From assembly GCA_000004985.1 (NCBI GenBank), contig GG738854.1: a stretch of DNA of 64,000 nucleotides; one strand, given 5' to 3'. The stretch comes from Naegleria gruberi. Taxonomy: Eukaryota. Under the pieces are notes generated by a model. The model saw only the letters and a program-made list of their open reading frames with translations. It did no database searches and was not told where the DNA came from. The translations under genes were made by a program, and so were the position numbers. Positions 24,317-27,947 of the stretch are shown here, one piece after another; within the stretch, counting starts at the first letter, position 1; each line of letters begins with the position of its first letter.

Positions 24317-26250
24317 ATGTCATTACATCATCATCATGAACAACAACAACAATATGTAATGACAATAACAAGAAGGAGGAAGAAGAATACTCTCAATTTA
24401 TTTAACATATTATTACTATTATTTATTATTACTACTAATAGTATTATTAATGTTCATTCACAATCAACAACACAATCATCATCATTAAAAATTCCAACAT
24501 TTTATTCATGTCCATTATATTCATTATCTATTAATAATACTATTTATAAATCATTTAATTATTTACATCCAAATTTTAAATTAAATTATAATCTCACTGC
24601 TGAATGTACTTTATTTAATTTACCTTTAAATAATTTAAATAATTCTAATATTAATTTAAATAGTGATAATTTAAATAATTTTAATAATTTTAATGATAAT
24701 AATATAAATGATAATAATAATAATTTAAATAATGATAATAATATAAATGATAATAATATAAATATTCTAGTTAAAAGAATTAAAACACAATCTAATAATA
24801 TATTAAAAAATAATACAGTATTATGGATAATACCAGGTATATCACCAACATTTTCTATTAATTTTAAAAATATTTATAATGAAACCTATTTTTTAGATTC
24901 ACAATCACCATCAACATCTTCATTAATATATTATGAACCATTAATAGATAGATTATTAAATTTAATAAATGAAAATTCATTACCAATTGAATATATATAT
25001 ATATTAAATCATAGAGGAAATGGAAATTCAAGATTAGGATGTGAAAATATTCAATCTGAAAGTAAAGGTTCAATTACATCAAGTATTATTGATATTAATT
25101 ATGAATTAAAATATTGTAAATTTAAAAATAATTTTAATTCTATTAATGCTGCTATTGATTTAATTAATATTTTAAATATTTTAAATAATAATAATTATAT
25201 ATATGGTAATTCATATGGTACTTTATGGATAAATAAAATGTTAAAATATATTGAAATTAATAATTTAAATAATTTAAATATAAAAGGTATTATTTTAGAT
25301 GGAATAATGTCAAATAATTTTACATTTGATAAAACTATTAAAATTCAATCAAATATAATTAAAAAATATTTAAATTATTGTAATAATTCAACTTTATGTT
25401 ATAATAAATTAAATAATTATTTAATAAATAATGAAAATATATTAAATAATTTAGATAATATTATTAAATCTATTTATAGAGATGGTGATAAATGTCCAAA
25501 TATAGTAAAAATAATAGATAATGAAGAATATTTTAGACAATTATTAACAAGATTATTAAATAATCAATATGAAAGAGTATTTATACCTGCAATATTATAT
25601 AGATTAAATAGATGTGATTATGATTTAGATTTACCTACTTTGGAAAGAATATTTAAATTTTTATTAAATAGAAGAAATGAAAATTTAAATAATTTTATTA
25701 ATTATCCAATTTCACAATCTCCTATTTTGGGTTATCAAATTATTTATAATGAATTATGGAATCATTCAATTACTGAAAATGATTTATTACAACAATATAA
25801 TCAATCTATTTTATCTACAAATGATCCAATTAATTATTTTAATGCTTTTAAAAATTTAAATAATAATTTAAATAATAATAATTGGAATTTTAATAATTTT
25901 AATAATAATTTTAATAATAATTTTAATAATTTAAATAATTTTAATAATAATGATAATAATATTAAAACAAACATTCCAATTTTAATTTTAAATGGAGAAT
26001 TAGATTCAATTACACCAATTGAAAATGCTATTGAATTATATAATTCCTTAAAAGGAAATTCTATTAAATTAATTAAAATACCATATGCAACACATTTTAG
26101 TTTAATTAATACACCAATTATAAATTCAACAATGGATTGTGGATTAGAATTATTTAATAATTTTATATTAAATAATGGTAATTTAACAAATATGGAATGT
26201 TTAGATAAATTAAGTTTTAATTTTACAGGATCAGATTATATTAATTTAGA
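24317..26250 (+). CDS. Secreted S33-family alpha/beta-hydrolase, proline-iminopeptidase or tripeptidyl-aminopeptidase-like. It is extremely Asn-rich and 3'-truncated by the 50-N gap
   Basis: A hydrophobic signal or anchor segment follows the ATG (NLFNILLLLFIITTNSIINVHS). S33 landmarks are present. LWIIPGISP aligns with the HGGPG motif, LNHRGNGNS with the DQRGxGRS motif, and YIYGNSYGTLW is the GxSxG nucleophile. ILILNGELDSITP supplies the catalytic Asp region and PYATHF the catalytic His. The ORF runs into the N run at 26251. Confidence 0.7.
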
Positions 26251-26300: not shown

Positions 26301-26797
26301 GGCTTTTTGAAAACTTTCAACAGAATCAAATTTGACATTCTTTAGTTCAATATCATCATGGAGTTCTTCACCCATCATTAAGGTGTGTTTTGCTTGCACT
26401 AATTTACTGGAATCCATGAAATGTTTAATATCATTCTCTCTTTGCTTTCTCATTTGAAGCGGCATTTGAATTTCTTTCCATAATAAAGTTTTTTGTAAAG
26501 CTTGTTTATGAATTGTTATTAATTCATTCATTTCATCTTCCATCTTTGAGATTGACTTTCTAATATCATTATTTAAACGAGCATTGCTAATTTGTCGTTC
26601 CTTTGTTTCTAATAAAGATTCGACTTTATCAATGGCAAGTTTAACATTAACTATTCAAGGTGTAAATGAAACTATAAATGTTATTATTTACCTTTTTGTT
26701 GTTCAAACTTGTCCAACTTTTTTAGTTTCTGTTGAAATTCTTTTTGTGTGTCTAATTGAGCACTTTCGACAACTTGTCCACAATCTATTCTAGGGAA
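26301..26797 (-). CDS. Coiled-coil protein gene fragment. The 3' end is lost in the 50-N gap. At least 2 exons, join(26301..26626,26670..26790 approximately)
   Basis: A minus-strand exon encodes ...DCGQVVESAQLDTQKEFQQKLKKLDKFEQQK. A GTAAAT donor and an ...gaatag acceptor define a 43-nt phase-1 intron. The next exon reads VNVKLAIDKVESLLETKERQISNARLNNDIRKSISKMEDEMNELITIHKQALQKTLLWKEIQMPLQMRKQRENDIKHFMDSSKLVQAKHTLMMGEELHDDIELKNVKFDSVESFQKA and then runs into the N run. The heptad-like charge pattern is typical of a coiled coil. The upstream exon boundary and the start codon were not found. Confidence 0.4.
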
Positions 26798-26843
26798 GAA
26801 GGATAAATTACAGCACGCAGGGGGAGAGGGGGTCTTGGCCAAA
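26791..26843 (+). repeat. Short repeat pair A1+B1, whose partners lie at 27299..27352
   Basis: A1 is tagggaagaaggataaattacag (26791..26813) and B1 is ggggagagggggtcttggccaaa (26821..26843). Confidence 0.5.
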
Positions 26844-27298
26844 TTATTAAAATAAAAATTAAAAAATTAAAAAATAATAAATAAAATAGAATGATTTCAT
26901 TTGCAAAAACCGCTACAAGATGACCGTTAAATATTCAACAAAAAAAAAACAACAATTACTCATCATGATTTCATCACCACCCTGCTAAATAACAACCTTC
27001 ATCACGCTACCTTGATACCACCGGAGGAGAAGTTCTTTTGCTTCCTTCCACATCATAGCCAACATTCAACATCTGTCATTTACTTGAAGTTGTTGGTACA
27101 TTGAAGTGAGGGTTCAGAACGAACACCAATCACACTTGGCCATTGTTCAGAACCCAGAAAGTGCTTGTTGCTCGAAGAACAAGTGGTAATTGATACTTTG
27201 AACGCCCTGTTTTTCTCTTGGTCTAATAAAGACTTGTATTGTTAATAAACTTCTATCTATAACAAATCATGAAAAAAAATCATACAACACCCTCAGTT

Positions 27299-27352
27299 GG
27301 TAGGAGGGGGTTCCAGACGGCCAAAAAGTGTAATTTATCCTTCTTCCCCTAA
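27299..27352 (+). repeat. Short repeat pair B2+A2. B2 is a direct copy of B1 and A2 is an inverted copy of A1
   Basis: B2 is ggtaggagggggttccagacggccaaaaa (27299..27327). A2 is gtgtaatttatccttcttcccctaa (27328..27352). The reverse complement of A2 equals A1 at 22 of 23 positions with one G indel. Confidence 0.5.
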
Positions 27353-27947
27353 TCTGATAAAGTCGACGTAGTAGATCAGCCAAACCTGGTGAAGTTTGCA
27401 TTAAATCTATTGTTTCTATAATGTTAGAATCTATGTCTGCCATGTTATTTCTTTTTTTTAATTGTTTTGGTTCACTTGAGTTTGCTTTCGAATACAAATA
27501 CTGATCTGGCCGAGTAAAAAAAAAATTGCTCCAAAGCAAAAACCTTAAAAATAGATGGTTGTCATCAACTCGAATCTTAACAACAAATTCTTATTTGCCA
27601 GCCAACTTTCTTACCTACTAAGAGTATTAAAACCAATGTTTTTGAGTTTGGGTATAAAATATTGGAAGAACCTATGGACAACTGCCAATTCTATTTCATG
27701 TTATTGTGTTAGAGGAGAGTTTTACAAATATGGTTAGATTGAAATATCCTCAAGTAACATAATTTGTGACTGTAACCTTGGATAATAAGATTCTTTTGAT
27801 AGTGGTAACCAGATCTAAAAATCTCAGAGGAAAAACAACTGAAATAAAAAATCCAACAACATGACATGGCCAACAACACAACAACAAACATGGAAACAAC
27901 AAGGCTACATTGCATGTTGTATCATTCTTGTGTTATTGTGTTCAACC

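What the first reader, a model, noticed from the sequence alone, without database searches (positions are those of the whole stretch)
26791..27947. Compositionally atypical block with mixed inverted and direct short repeats and non-host codon usage, abutting the 36-kb gap
After the 50-N gap the sequence loses the extreme AT bias, with GC-rich runs such as gggggagagggggtcttggcc and ccaccggaggag. A 23-nt element A (tagggaagaaggataaattacag) occurs at 26791 and again in inverse orientation at 27328. An adjacent ~23-nt G-rich element B occurs in direct orientation at 26821 and 27299. Between them, a 68-codon minus-strand ORF (MADIDSNIIETIDLMQTSPGLADLLRRLYQIRGRRINYTFWPSGTPSYQ…) uses codons that are rare in this genome (CTA, CGT, CGA, CCG, CCC). 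This looks like a fragment of a mobile element or another complex repeat. The flanking 36-kb unsequenced gap is consistent with a repeat cluster that defeated assembly. The A copy at 26791 also coincides with the apparent 5' boundary or acceptor (ccttcttccctag) of the coiled-coil gene's upstream exon, so an insertion into or next to that gene is possible.
Basis: partly seen in the sequence, partly recalled or inferred. Interest (0 to 1): 0.5.

Follow-up and report, generated by a model that had tools for sequence, protein, structure and literature searches.

The report
Small transposon inside a Naegleria SNARE gene
The flagged block is a 556-base miniature DNA transposon, with perfect 20-base inverted ends and a 3-base target duplication, that has landed in the first coding exon of a SNARE membrane-fusion gene of the amoeba Naegleria gruberi; this is an ordinary kind of event, interesting mainly if the cell splices the element out.

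Summary
The window is Naegleria gruberi NEG-M, not a dictyostelid (exact protein match). Direct CTA triplets flank it at 26790-26792 and 27349-27351. Removing the 556 bp plus one CTA joins two minus-strand exon pieces into ...PGLADLLRRLYQIR|IDCGQVV.... This motif is uninterrupted in every Naegleria and Willaertia homologue and is contiguous in N. fowleri DNA. The block is therefore a complete MITE-like cut-and-paste element inserted in exon 1 of a divergent tail-anchored Q-SNARE paralogue. The "foreign" ORF is the true exon 1a (32 codons) plus 26 codons of read-through into the element. Element B is only a shared 8-mer (p about 0.03-0.07). The GC content (36.5%) equals the genome mean. No second copy could be found, because N. 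gruberi DNA beyond the window was out of reach, so family size and superfamily remain open. The element has no GT at its 5' edge. Its TIR plus duplication does form a good acceptor (YYYTAG), and an in-frame GTATGA donor lies 63 nt inside, so removal at the RNA level cannot be excluded. This is a new member of a known kind and of modest interest.

The parts
26790..26792 (+). Target-site duplication, left copy (CTA; TAG on the gene strand)
   Evidence: Direct repeat of 27349-27351, immediately outside the TIRs. The chance of a 3-nt match is about 0.02.
26793..26812 (+). Left terminal inverted repeat, GGGAAGAAGGATAAATTACA
   Evidence: 100% complementary to 27329-27348 over 20 nt. No matches are expected by chance.
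26813..27328 (.). Non-coding interior of the element (516 bp), containing an A/T-rich microsatellite-like stretch at 26841-26886
   Evidence: There is no stop-free frame longer than 57 aa. There are no Pfam hits and no Rfam hits.
26820..26840 (+). Subterminal G-rich block B1 (GGGGGAGAGGGGGTCTTGGCC)
   Evidence: Shares only GAGGGGGT (26826-26833) and GGCC with B2. The shuffle probability is 0.03-0.07.
27299..27322 (+). Subterminal G-rich block B2 (GGTAGGAGGGGGTTCCAGACGGCC), same strand as B1
   Evidence: The significance is marginal.
27329..27348 (-). Right terminal inverted repeat
27349..27351 (+). Target-site duplication, right copy (CTA)
27349..27443 (-). Exon 1a of the Q-SNARE paralogue: ATG at 27443, encoding MADIDSNIIETIDLMQTSPGLADLLRRLYQI(R)
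   Evidence: Translation. It aligns to the conserved PGMADLFRRLYQIR motif of the Naegleria and Willaertia homologues.
26692..26789 (-). Exon 1b of the same gene, encoding (R)IDCGQVVESAQLDTQKEFQQKLKKLDKFEQQK
   Evidence: It is in frame with exon 1a once the element plus one TSD copy is removed. Exons 1a and 1b abut on the contiguous N. fowleri exon.
26651..26691 (-). 41-nt GT..AG intron (GTAAAT...AATAG), phase 1
   Evidence: It restores the frame. It has the same position and phase as the 515-nt intron in N. fowleri.
26301..26650 (-). Exon 2 (partial) of the gene, running into the 50-N gap
   Evidence: It is 98% identical to N. gruberi NAEGRDRAFT_64514 (P0001) over the 51-aa overlap.
27280..27285 (-). 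Candidate cryptic 5' splice site GTATGA inside the element. Paired with the acceptor at 26790 it gives a 496-nt intron and an in-frame product with 21 extra aa.
   Evidence: Enumeration of donors. This is an inference only, with no transcript evidence.

Best explanation
What is shown:
- The segment 26793-27348 is a complete 556-bp non-autonomous cut-and-paste (class II, TIR) transposon of the MITE type.
- It sits inside codon 32 (the Arg of ...YQIR|IDCG...) in exon 1 of a divergent tail-anchored Q-SNARE paralogue of Naegleria gruberi, which lies on the minus strand.
- The element interrupts one of the most conserved motifs of this protein family.
- If the element stays in the mRNA, the ORF ends after 58 codons.

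What is inferred from how TIR transposons work:
- A transposase supplied in trans bound the two 20-bp terminal inverted repeats.
- It made a 3-nt staggered cut at CTA/TAG.
- Gap repair then duplicated that triplet.

Inferred history:
- The TIRs are identical (20 of 20), the duplication is intact, and the surrounding reading frame is unbroken. The insertion therefore looks recent.
- It is probably present on only one haplotype. That would also explain why it sits on an orphan 1.6-kb contig between two N runs, while a near-identical gene fragment (NAEGRDRAFT_64514) is modelled elsewhere on the same scaffold.
- The 3-bp duplication and GG-starting TIR fit PIF/Harbinger (Tourist-like) best. Zator, Academ or CACTA-type elements, or a TA duplication of the Tc1/mariner type, are not excluded.
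For: - The 20-nt inverted repeat is perfect, with 0 expected by chance. No comparable non-low-complexity pair exists in the other 26 kb.
- Identical CTA triplets lie immediately outside both TIRs, with chance about 0.02.
- Deleting the element plus one CTA gives a 181-codon open frame.
- The junction RRLYQIR|IDCG matches the invariant-like motif PGMADLFRRLYQIRIDCGE in N. fowleri, N. lovaniensis, Willaertia magna and the second N. gruberi paralogue.
- In N. fowleri genomic DNA the site is uninterrupted, and the two N. gruberi exon halves abut base for base on it.
- The interior is non-coding: no frame exceeds 57 aa, and there are no Pfam or Rfam hits.
- P0001 differs from the window copy by K to Q and continues past the point where the window contig ends. 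This indicates a second allele or copy on the same 665,159-bp scaffold.
Against: - No second copy of the element or of its TIR was found in any of these: the window; N. fowleri loci; JGI metagenomes, where 3 isolated 20-mer hits lacked a partner or any extended similarity; IMG/VR; GTDB genomes; a six-frame protein search; an exhaustive HMMER search, whose one hit was a spurious match to a low-complexity repeat protein; and the literature.
- These collections do not contain the N. gruberi genome, so this absence says little.
- Multi-copy status, the usual proof of mobility, is therefore untested.
- The duplicated triplet CTA/TAG is not the canonical TWA of PIF/Harbinger.
- Naegleria genomes are reported as very TE-poor, at 0.28% (bioRxiv 10.64898/2026.06.24.734286).
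Confidence: 0.75

Rival explanations
1. The element is a transposon-derived intron that is removed from the pre-mRNA, so the gene stays functional. There are two possible routes. (a) The spliceosome uses the acceptor formed by the pyrimidine-rich TIR plus the duplicated TAG (TTTATCCTTCTTCCCTAG|) and the in-frame internal donor GTATGA at 27285, giving a nascent 'introner' with 63 nt exonised. (b) A spliceosome-independent route like that of euglenid nonconventional introns acts on the 20-bp terminal stem, which juxtaposes the exon ends, and on the direct repeats at the junctions.
For: - The element has TIRs plus a 3-nt TSD, as Micromonas introner elements do (PMC11282704; PMC9860276).
- In the gene's orientation the 3' end is a strong acceptor.
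- GTATGA at 27285 is in frame, and the 26 element codons before it contain no stop.
- The RNA fold pairs the two ends in a stem of about 21 bp.
- The host gene is otherwise intact and retains all family motifs.
- Euglenids, where MITE-like nonconventional introns occur, belong to Discoba together with Naegleria (own knowledge).
Against: - There is no GT, GC or AT at the 5' element boundary in any of the four registers allowed by the TAG repeat.
- The euglenid signature CAG/CTG at +4..+6 and -8..-6 is absent, and a polypyrimidine tract is present (features from PMC3935182 and PMC11282704).
- Nonconventional introns are unknown outside euglenids.
- No transcript-derived protein across the junction exists in the databases searched.
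- The in-frame donor has a prior chance of roughly 0.05.
- Cryptic splicing would insert 21 aa into the most conserved motif.
Confidence: 0.12
2. The block is a cloning or assembly artefact: the orphan 1.6-kb Sanger contig is chimeric, and the block is not really inside the gene in vivo.
For: The contig is tiny and sits between two N runs. A near-identical gene fragment is modelled separately on the same scaffold.
Against: A chimera would not create perfect TIRs with a 3-nt duplication at a point where the two exon halves abut base for base and in frame.
Confidence: 0.04
3. The block is an ordinary, old spliceosomal intron or spacer, and its inverted ends arose by chance or by local duplication, with no mobile origin.
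For: The gene has another intron nearby. No other copies of the element were found.
Against: There is no canonical donor at the boundary. A 20/20 inverted repeat is not expected by chance. The flanking triplet is duplicated. The site is uninterrupted in N. fowleri DNA, and the motif it splits is continuous in every family protein aligned.
Confidence: 0.03
4. This is the first reader's version: a fragment of a dictyostelid-type complex repeat (DIRS-1, Skipper, TRE, Tdd or DDT) at the edge of a repeat cluster, carrying a foreign ORF.
For: The block has inverted repeats and a locally higher GC than the adjacent 26 kb.
Against: - The host is Naegleria gruberi.
- The ORF is the host's exon 1a plus read-through.
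- The element is complete, 556 bp long, and bounded by a TSD.
- There are no RT, YR or transposase remnants.
Confidence: 0.01

Closest known systems
MITEs: non-autonomous TIR DNA transposons, especially Tourist-like derivatives of PIF/Harbinger
   Same: It is short (556 bp) and non-coding. It has perfect TIRs that start with GG. It is flanked by a 3-bp target-site duplication and inserted in genic DNA. The homologous site in a relative is empty.
   Different: The duplicated triplet is CTA/TAG rather than TWA. Copy number and an autonomous partner are unknown. It sits in a coding exon of a TE-poor protist. The direct-oriented G-rich subterminal blocks are unusual, if they are real.
Introner elements of Micromonas pusilla and other protists (PMC11282704; PMC9860276)
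   Same: It has TIRs plus a 3-nt TSD. One splice site (here the AG acceptor) is completed by the duplicated target triplet next to a TIR.
   Different: There is no donor at the opposite boundary, so precise spliceosomal removal is impossible. There is no evidence of many intronic copies, and no transcript evidence.
Nonconventional introns of euglenids (PMC3935182)
   Same: The borders are non-GT. A stable terminal stem brings the exon ends together. There are direct repeats at the junctions. The position is lineage-specific, and a MITE-like origin has been proposed for them. The host belongs to the same supergroup (Discoba).
   Different: The conserved CAG/CTG (CA/TG) near-terminal pair is missing. 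A polypyrimidine tract is present. These introns have never been reported in Heterolobosea. RNA-level excision is untested.
Maize Ds insertions processed as de novo introns (Giroux et al. 1994, cited in PMC3935182)
   Same: A TIR transposon sits in an exon, and cryptic donor and acceptor sites in or near the element could remove most of it from the mRNA.
   Different: For maize this was shown experimentally. Here it is only a sequence-based possibility.

Membership tests
Non-autonomous class II TIR transposon (MITE) | Terminal inverted repeats at both ends | tested here: met
   20/20 complementary, at 26793-26812 and 27329-27348.
Non-autonomous class II TIR transposon (MITE) | Short target-site duplication directly flanking the TIRs | tested here: met
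   CTA at 26790-26792 and 27349-27351. Chance is about 0.02.
Non-autonomous class II TIR transposon (MITE) | Empty site in homologous sequence; removing the element plus one TSD restores the target | tested here: met
   The ORF is restored. The N. fowleri DNA is contiguous. The motif is uninterrupted in all 6 homologues that cover this region, out of 8 aligned.
Non-autonomous class II TIR transposon (MITE) | Small size and no transposase coding capacity | tested here: met
   It is 556 bp, the longest open frame is 57 aa, and there are no Pfam hits.
Non-autonomous class II TIR transposon (MITE) | Multiple related copies in the genome with different flanks | not testable with these tools
   N. 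gruberi DNA outside the window is not retrievable. No copies were found in the collections that could be searched.
PIF/Harbinger (Tourist-like) superfamily | 3-bp TSD of consensus TWA | tested here: inconclusive
   The length is 3 bp, as expected, but the sequence is CTA/TAG, not TTA/TAA. The consensus is taken from own knowledge.
PIF/Harbinger (Tourist-like) superfamily | Autonomous partner with matching TIRs encoding a DDE_Tnp_4 transposase and a Myb-like protein | not testable with these tools
   There is no access to the N. gruberi genome, and no transposase gene lies in the window's large ORFs.
Introner elements | The element plus TSD supplies both a GT donor and an AG acceptor at its boundaries, so it is spliced exactly | tested here: not met
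   The acceptor CCCTAG| is present, but there is no GT or GC at the 5' boundary in any register. The nearest in-frame donor is 63 nt inside the element.
Introner elements | Many near-identical copies serving as introns in unrelated genes | not testable with these tools
The introner survey text does not mention Naegleria.
Euglenid nonconventional introns | Non-canonical borders, with terminal base pairing that brings the exon ends together, and direct repeats at the junctions | tested here: met
   The borders are GG...AG, the terminal stem is 20-21 bp in the MFE and centroid folds, and a TAG repeat lies at both junctions.
Euglenid nonconventional introns | Conserved CAG/CTG at +4..+6 and -8..-6, and no polypyrimidine tract | tested here: not met
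   Positions +4 and +5 read AA, GA or GG depending on the register, and the 3' end is TTTATCCTTCTTCCC. The features are taken from PMC3935182 and PMC11282704.
Euglenid nonconventional introns | Excised from the pre-mRNA (as full-length circles) | not testable with these tools
   No transcript data are available.
   The host is Naegleria gruberi. The element is 556 bp, non-coding and flanked by a TSD.
SNARE (t-SNARE coiled-coil homology) proteins: the host gene | C-terminal SNARE domain (PF05739) followed by a TM anchor | tested here: inconclusive
   The full-length relatives P0008, P0004 and P0006 hit PF05739 at 27.1, 23.6 and 21.7 bits against a cutoff of 26.8, and they end in a hydrophobic tail. 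The window copy is cut by the gap before that domain. Its continuation P0001 carries the motif but gives no Pfam hit.

The most novel reading that the evidence does not exclude
The element is not a null mutation but a newly born intron in a heterolobosean. It would be removed from the SNARE pre-mRNA in one of two ways. Either it is removed precisely, by a structure-guided nonconventional mechanism like that of euglenids, using the 20-bp terminal stem and the TAG direct repeats. Or the spliceosome removes it through the TSD-completed acceptor and an internal in-frame donor. That would be the first transposon-to-intron conversion caught in Naegleria. It would also extend MITE-derived noncanonical introns beyond Euglenida within Discoba.
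Probability: 0.1. Interest if true: 0.75.

Novelty: new member of a known kind. Interest (0 to 1): 0.3.

Why it matters
- Naegleria genomes are reported to be almost free of recognisable transposons. An apparently fresh TIR-element insertion in a coding exon would indicate recent cut-and-paste transposase activity in N. gruberi and give a concrete TIR sequence with which to find the family and its autonomous partner.
- It explains a mis-modelled, fragmented SNARE gene (NAEGRDRAFT_64514) and probably an orphan contig in the reference assembly.
- If transcripts show the element is removed, this single locus would be a testable snapshot of intron birth from a transposon, in a lineage related to euglenids, where such an origin of nonconventional introns is only hypothesised.

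Tried and rejected
- **Rfam:** a scan of the island at E up to 10 gave only sub-threshold noise.
- **tRNA:** no tRNA genes were found.
- **Pfam:** there were no hits on the element's open frames. A first attempt failed because of stop codons.
- **Six-frame search:** a concatenated six-frame translation of the element against the 5.8-billion protein set gave no hit at E up to 10. This index search is insensitive, because it missed a 61%-identical paralogue.
- **Exhaustive HMMER:** the 57-aa internal frame gave one hit, P0014, a repetitive low-complexity protein of unknown source matched through PP..FFC.LPH.S.HS repeats. I rejected it as spurious.
- **TIR 20-mer scans:**
  - Metagenomes gave 3 isolated hits with no partner arm within 5 mismatches and no extended similarity. 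I rejected them as chance.
  - IMG/VR gave 0 hits.
  - GTDB genomes gave 0 hits.
  - The N. fowleri locus gave 0 hits.
  - Full-text literature gave 0 hits.
- **Fetching N. gruberi DNA through exact-protein look-ups:** nothing is on record.
- **Calibrating gene order through exact ORF look-ups:** only the F-box ORF matched.
- **U12-type or GT-AG splicing exactly at the element borders:** there are no suitable dinucleotides.
- **Hairpins in the subterminal B blocks:** none were found.
- **Solo LTR, DIRS, Helitron and piggyBac:** I considered and rejected these on TSD length, TIR length and terminal sequence (own knowledge).
Full report
**Setting**

The window contains real sequence only at 1-26250 and 26301-27947. 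A 50-N run separates the two stretches, and Ns fill 27948-64000. The finding therefore lies on a 1,647-bp island contig.

That assumption is wrong:
- The ORF at 901-1557 is identical to NAEGRDRAFT_64523 of Naegleria gruberi NEG-M, on a 665,159-bp scaffold.
- The coiled-coil gene on the island is 98% identical, over a 51-aa overlap, to N. gruberi NAEGRDRAFT_64514 (P0001), which lies on the same scaffold.
- The neighbouring genes are ordinary: an F-box gene, an ammonium-transporter fragment, two cullins, a queuosine-salvage gene, a DOCK GEF, and an alpha/beta-hydrolase cut by the 50-N gap.

**Checking the observation**

- **Element A is real, but 20 nt long rather than 23.** GGGAAGAAGGATAAATTACA at 26793-26812 is perfectly complementary to 27329-27348.
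  - It has no other match in the window at up to 3 mismatches, and none in 100 shuffles.
  - Nothing comparable outside low-complexity AT runs exists in the other 26 kb.
The trinucleotide CTA lies directly outside both arms, at 26790-26792 and 27349-27351. The chance of this is about 0.02.
- **Element B is weak.** The two G-rich blocks share only the 8-mer GAGGGGGT plus GGCC. A shared 8-mer between the two 50-nt subterminal windows arises in 3-7% of shuffles.
- **The minus-strand ORF exists but is shorter than stated.** It has 58 codons from the ATG at 27443.
- **The composition is not atypical for the genome.** The element's GC of 36.5% exceeds the 27% of the adjacent 26 kb, yet 7% of equal-sized windows there reach it. 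The published genome mean is 35% (PMC6125883).

**What it is**

On the minus strand the ORF begins MADIDSNIIETIDLMQTSPGLADLLRRLYQIR and then runs into the right TIR. Directly beyond the left TIR, a second open frame continues IDCGQVVESAQLDTQKEFQQKLKKLDKFEQQK.

- Deleting 26793-27348 plus one CTA joins these two pieces in frame. With a 41-nt GT..AG intron (26691-26651) also removed, the result is a 181-codon open frame that runs into the 50-N gap.
- A homologue found with that reconstruction reads ...PGMADLFRRLYQIRIDCGEIVG... without interruption (P0002).
- Its contig is N. fowleri, since the full-length product is 100% identical to an N. fowleri protein.
- In that genomic DNA the site is contiguous. 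The two N. gruberi exon halves abut base for base on it...TATCAGAT|TAGAATAGATTG against ...TATCAAATCAGAATTGATTG.
- The motif is equally uninterrupted in N. lovaniensis (two paralogues), Willaertia magna, an unnamed Naegleria-like sequence known only from a 1,216-nt Logan contig, and a second, full-length N. gruberi paralogue, NAEGRDRAFT_73677.
- The family is a tail-anchored t-SNARE/Q-SNARE. PF05739 scores 27.1 bits in one member, just above the 26.8 cutoff, and slightly below it in others. There is also a weak syntaxin-6 match.
- The intron after ...QQK| is at the same position and phase as a 515-nt intron in N. fowleri, which supports the gene model.

The block therefore has the full set of hallmarks of a class II insertion:
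- perfect TIRs;
- a 3-bp target-site duplication;
- an empty site in homologous DNA;
- exact restoration of a conserved coding sequence on removal;
- no coding capacity of its own (longest frame 57 aa, no Pfam or Rfam hits).

It is a complete 556-bp MITE-like element, not a fragment of a larger repeat. Of the six 'rare' codons, CTA, CTA, CGT and CGA are in the host exon.

**How it most likely works**

- **Shown:** the structure, the breakpoint, the empty site, and a premature stop after 58 codons if the element stays in the mRNA.
- **Inferred from the known mechanism of TIR transposons:** a trans-acting transposase bound the TIRs, made a 3-nt staggered cut at CTA/TAG, and repair duplicated the triplet.
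- **Inferred history:**
  - The 20/20 TIR identity, the intact duplication and the otherwise unbroken, motif-preserving host frame point to a recent event.
  - The K-to-Q difference from P0001, and the fact that P0001 continues past the contig end, suggest that the filled site is one haplotype. This would also explain the orphan contig.
- **Superfamily:** from my own knowledge, a 3-bp duplication and GG-initial TIRs fit PIF/Harbinger (Tourist-like) best. However, CTA is not the canonical TWA. Zator, Academ, CACTA-type, or a TA duplication with one extra terminal G cannot be excluded from a single copy.

**Rival: removal at the RNA level**

In the gene's orientation, the right-hand end reads TGTAATTTATCCTTCTTCCC+TAG|. 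This is a good polypyrimidine/AG acceptor, and the duplicated triplet completes it, as in Micromonas introner elements (PMC11282704).

Evidence against precise spliceosomal removal:
- The 5' boundary has no GT, GC or AT in any of the four registers allowed by the TAG repeat.

Evidence that leaves other routes open:
- An in-frame donor, GTATGA, lies 63 nt inside the element at 27285. Using it would remove 496 nt and add 21 residues.
- The termini pair as a stem of about 21 bp that juxtaposes the exon ends.
- Direct repeats sit at the junctions. These are features of euglenid nonconventional introns, for which a MITE origin has been proposed (PMC3935182).

Evidence against the euglenid-type route:
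- The conserved CAG/CTG near-terminal pair is absent.
- A polypyrimidine tract is present.
- Such introns are unknown outside euglenids.
- No transcript-derived protein spanning the junction exists in the searched database.

I rate RNA-level removal at about 0.1.

**What could not be done**

The usual proof of mobility is additional copies with different flanks, and it could not be obtained. N. gruberi DNA outside the window is not in any searchable collection.

- The TIR scans gave nothing useful:
  - the metagenome scan gave three isolated, partner-less 20-mer matches;
  - the IMG/VR scan gave none;
  - the GTDB scan gave none;
  - the N. fowleri locus gave none.
- A six-frame protein search found nothing. 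That index search is insensitive, since it missed a 61%-identical paralogue.
- An exhaustive HMMER search of the 57-aa internal frame gave one spurious low-complexity hit.
- Literature searches found no description of this sequence or of Naegleria MITEs or introners.
- One recent survey reports only 0.28% TE content in N. gruberi.

**Verdict**

A is real and significant, B is marginal, and the ORF and composition were misread.
A mobile element inserted in the gene is correct. A dictyostelid repeat fragment with a foreign ORF is not.
- The best explanation is a recent, probably hemizygous MITE-like insertion in exon 1 of a divergent Q-SNARE paralogue of N. gruberi (confidence 0.75).
- This is a new member of a known kind and of modest interest (0.3). 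It would become considerably more interesting if transcripts show that the element is removed.

Noticed in passing
window 26651-26691 (minus strand): The SNARE paralogue has a very short (41-nt) GT..AG intron, GTAAAT...AATAG. It lies at the same position and phase as a 515-nt intron in N. fowleri (L001 9480-9994).
   Followed up: partly
window 26301-26543 versus P0001 (NAEGRDRAFT_64514): The annotated N. gruberi protein on the same scaffold overlaps the island's exon 2 with one K-to-Q difference. It continues (KNEIPSVDISEG...) past the point where the window has the 50-N gap and then an unrelated hydrolase gene. This means a second allele or copy, or a scaffolding problem, at this locus. The published gene model starts at an internal Met and lacks the TM tail.
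   Followed up: partly
window 27948-64000: The N run reaches the end of the window. Its length is therefore only a lower bound, and it may be a fosmid-sized scaffold gap or simple padding. Nothing about a repeat cluster can be inferred from it.
   Followed up: no
window 27913-27928 (+) and L001 9663-9678: An exact 16-nt match, CATGTTGTATCATTCT (about 21 of 24 with one indel), links the region upstream of the N. gruberi gene and the intron of the N. fowleri homologue. With E = 0.03 it is probably chance.
   Followed up: no
protein P0013 (ENA contig, 338 aa): A 30-residue SNARE-motif stretch typical of this family (EKLDILLGQIKTIGGIANSISDELEKQAHLLE) is embedded in an otherwise unrelated predicted protein from an environmental contig.
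   Followed up: no
window 1-26250: The 26 kb to the left of the island is 27% GC, with Asn-rich low-complexity coding.
   Followed up: partly
window 24317-26250 (+): An alpha/beta-hydrolase-fold gene (PF00561) is truncated by the 50-N gap. The gap must therefore hide both its 3' end and the 3' half of the SNARE gene, so the real gap is much larger than 50 bp.
   Followed up: no
tool behaviour: The word-index protein search with the reconstructed window protein missed the 61%-identical N. gruberi paralogue P0006, which a later search recovered. Negative results from that tool should be read cautiously.
   Followed up: yes
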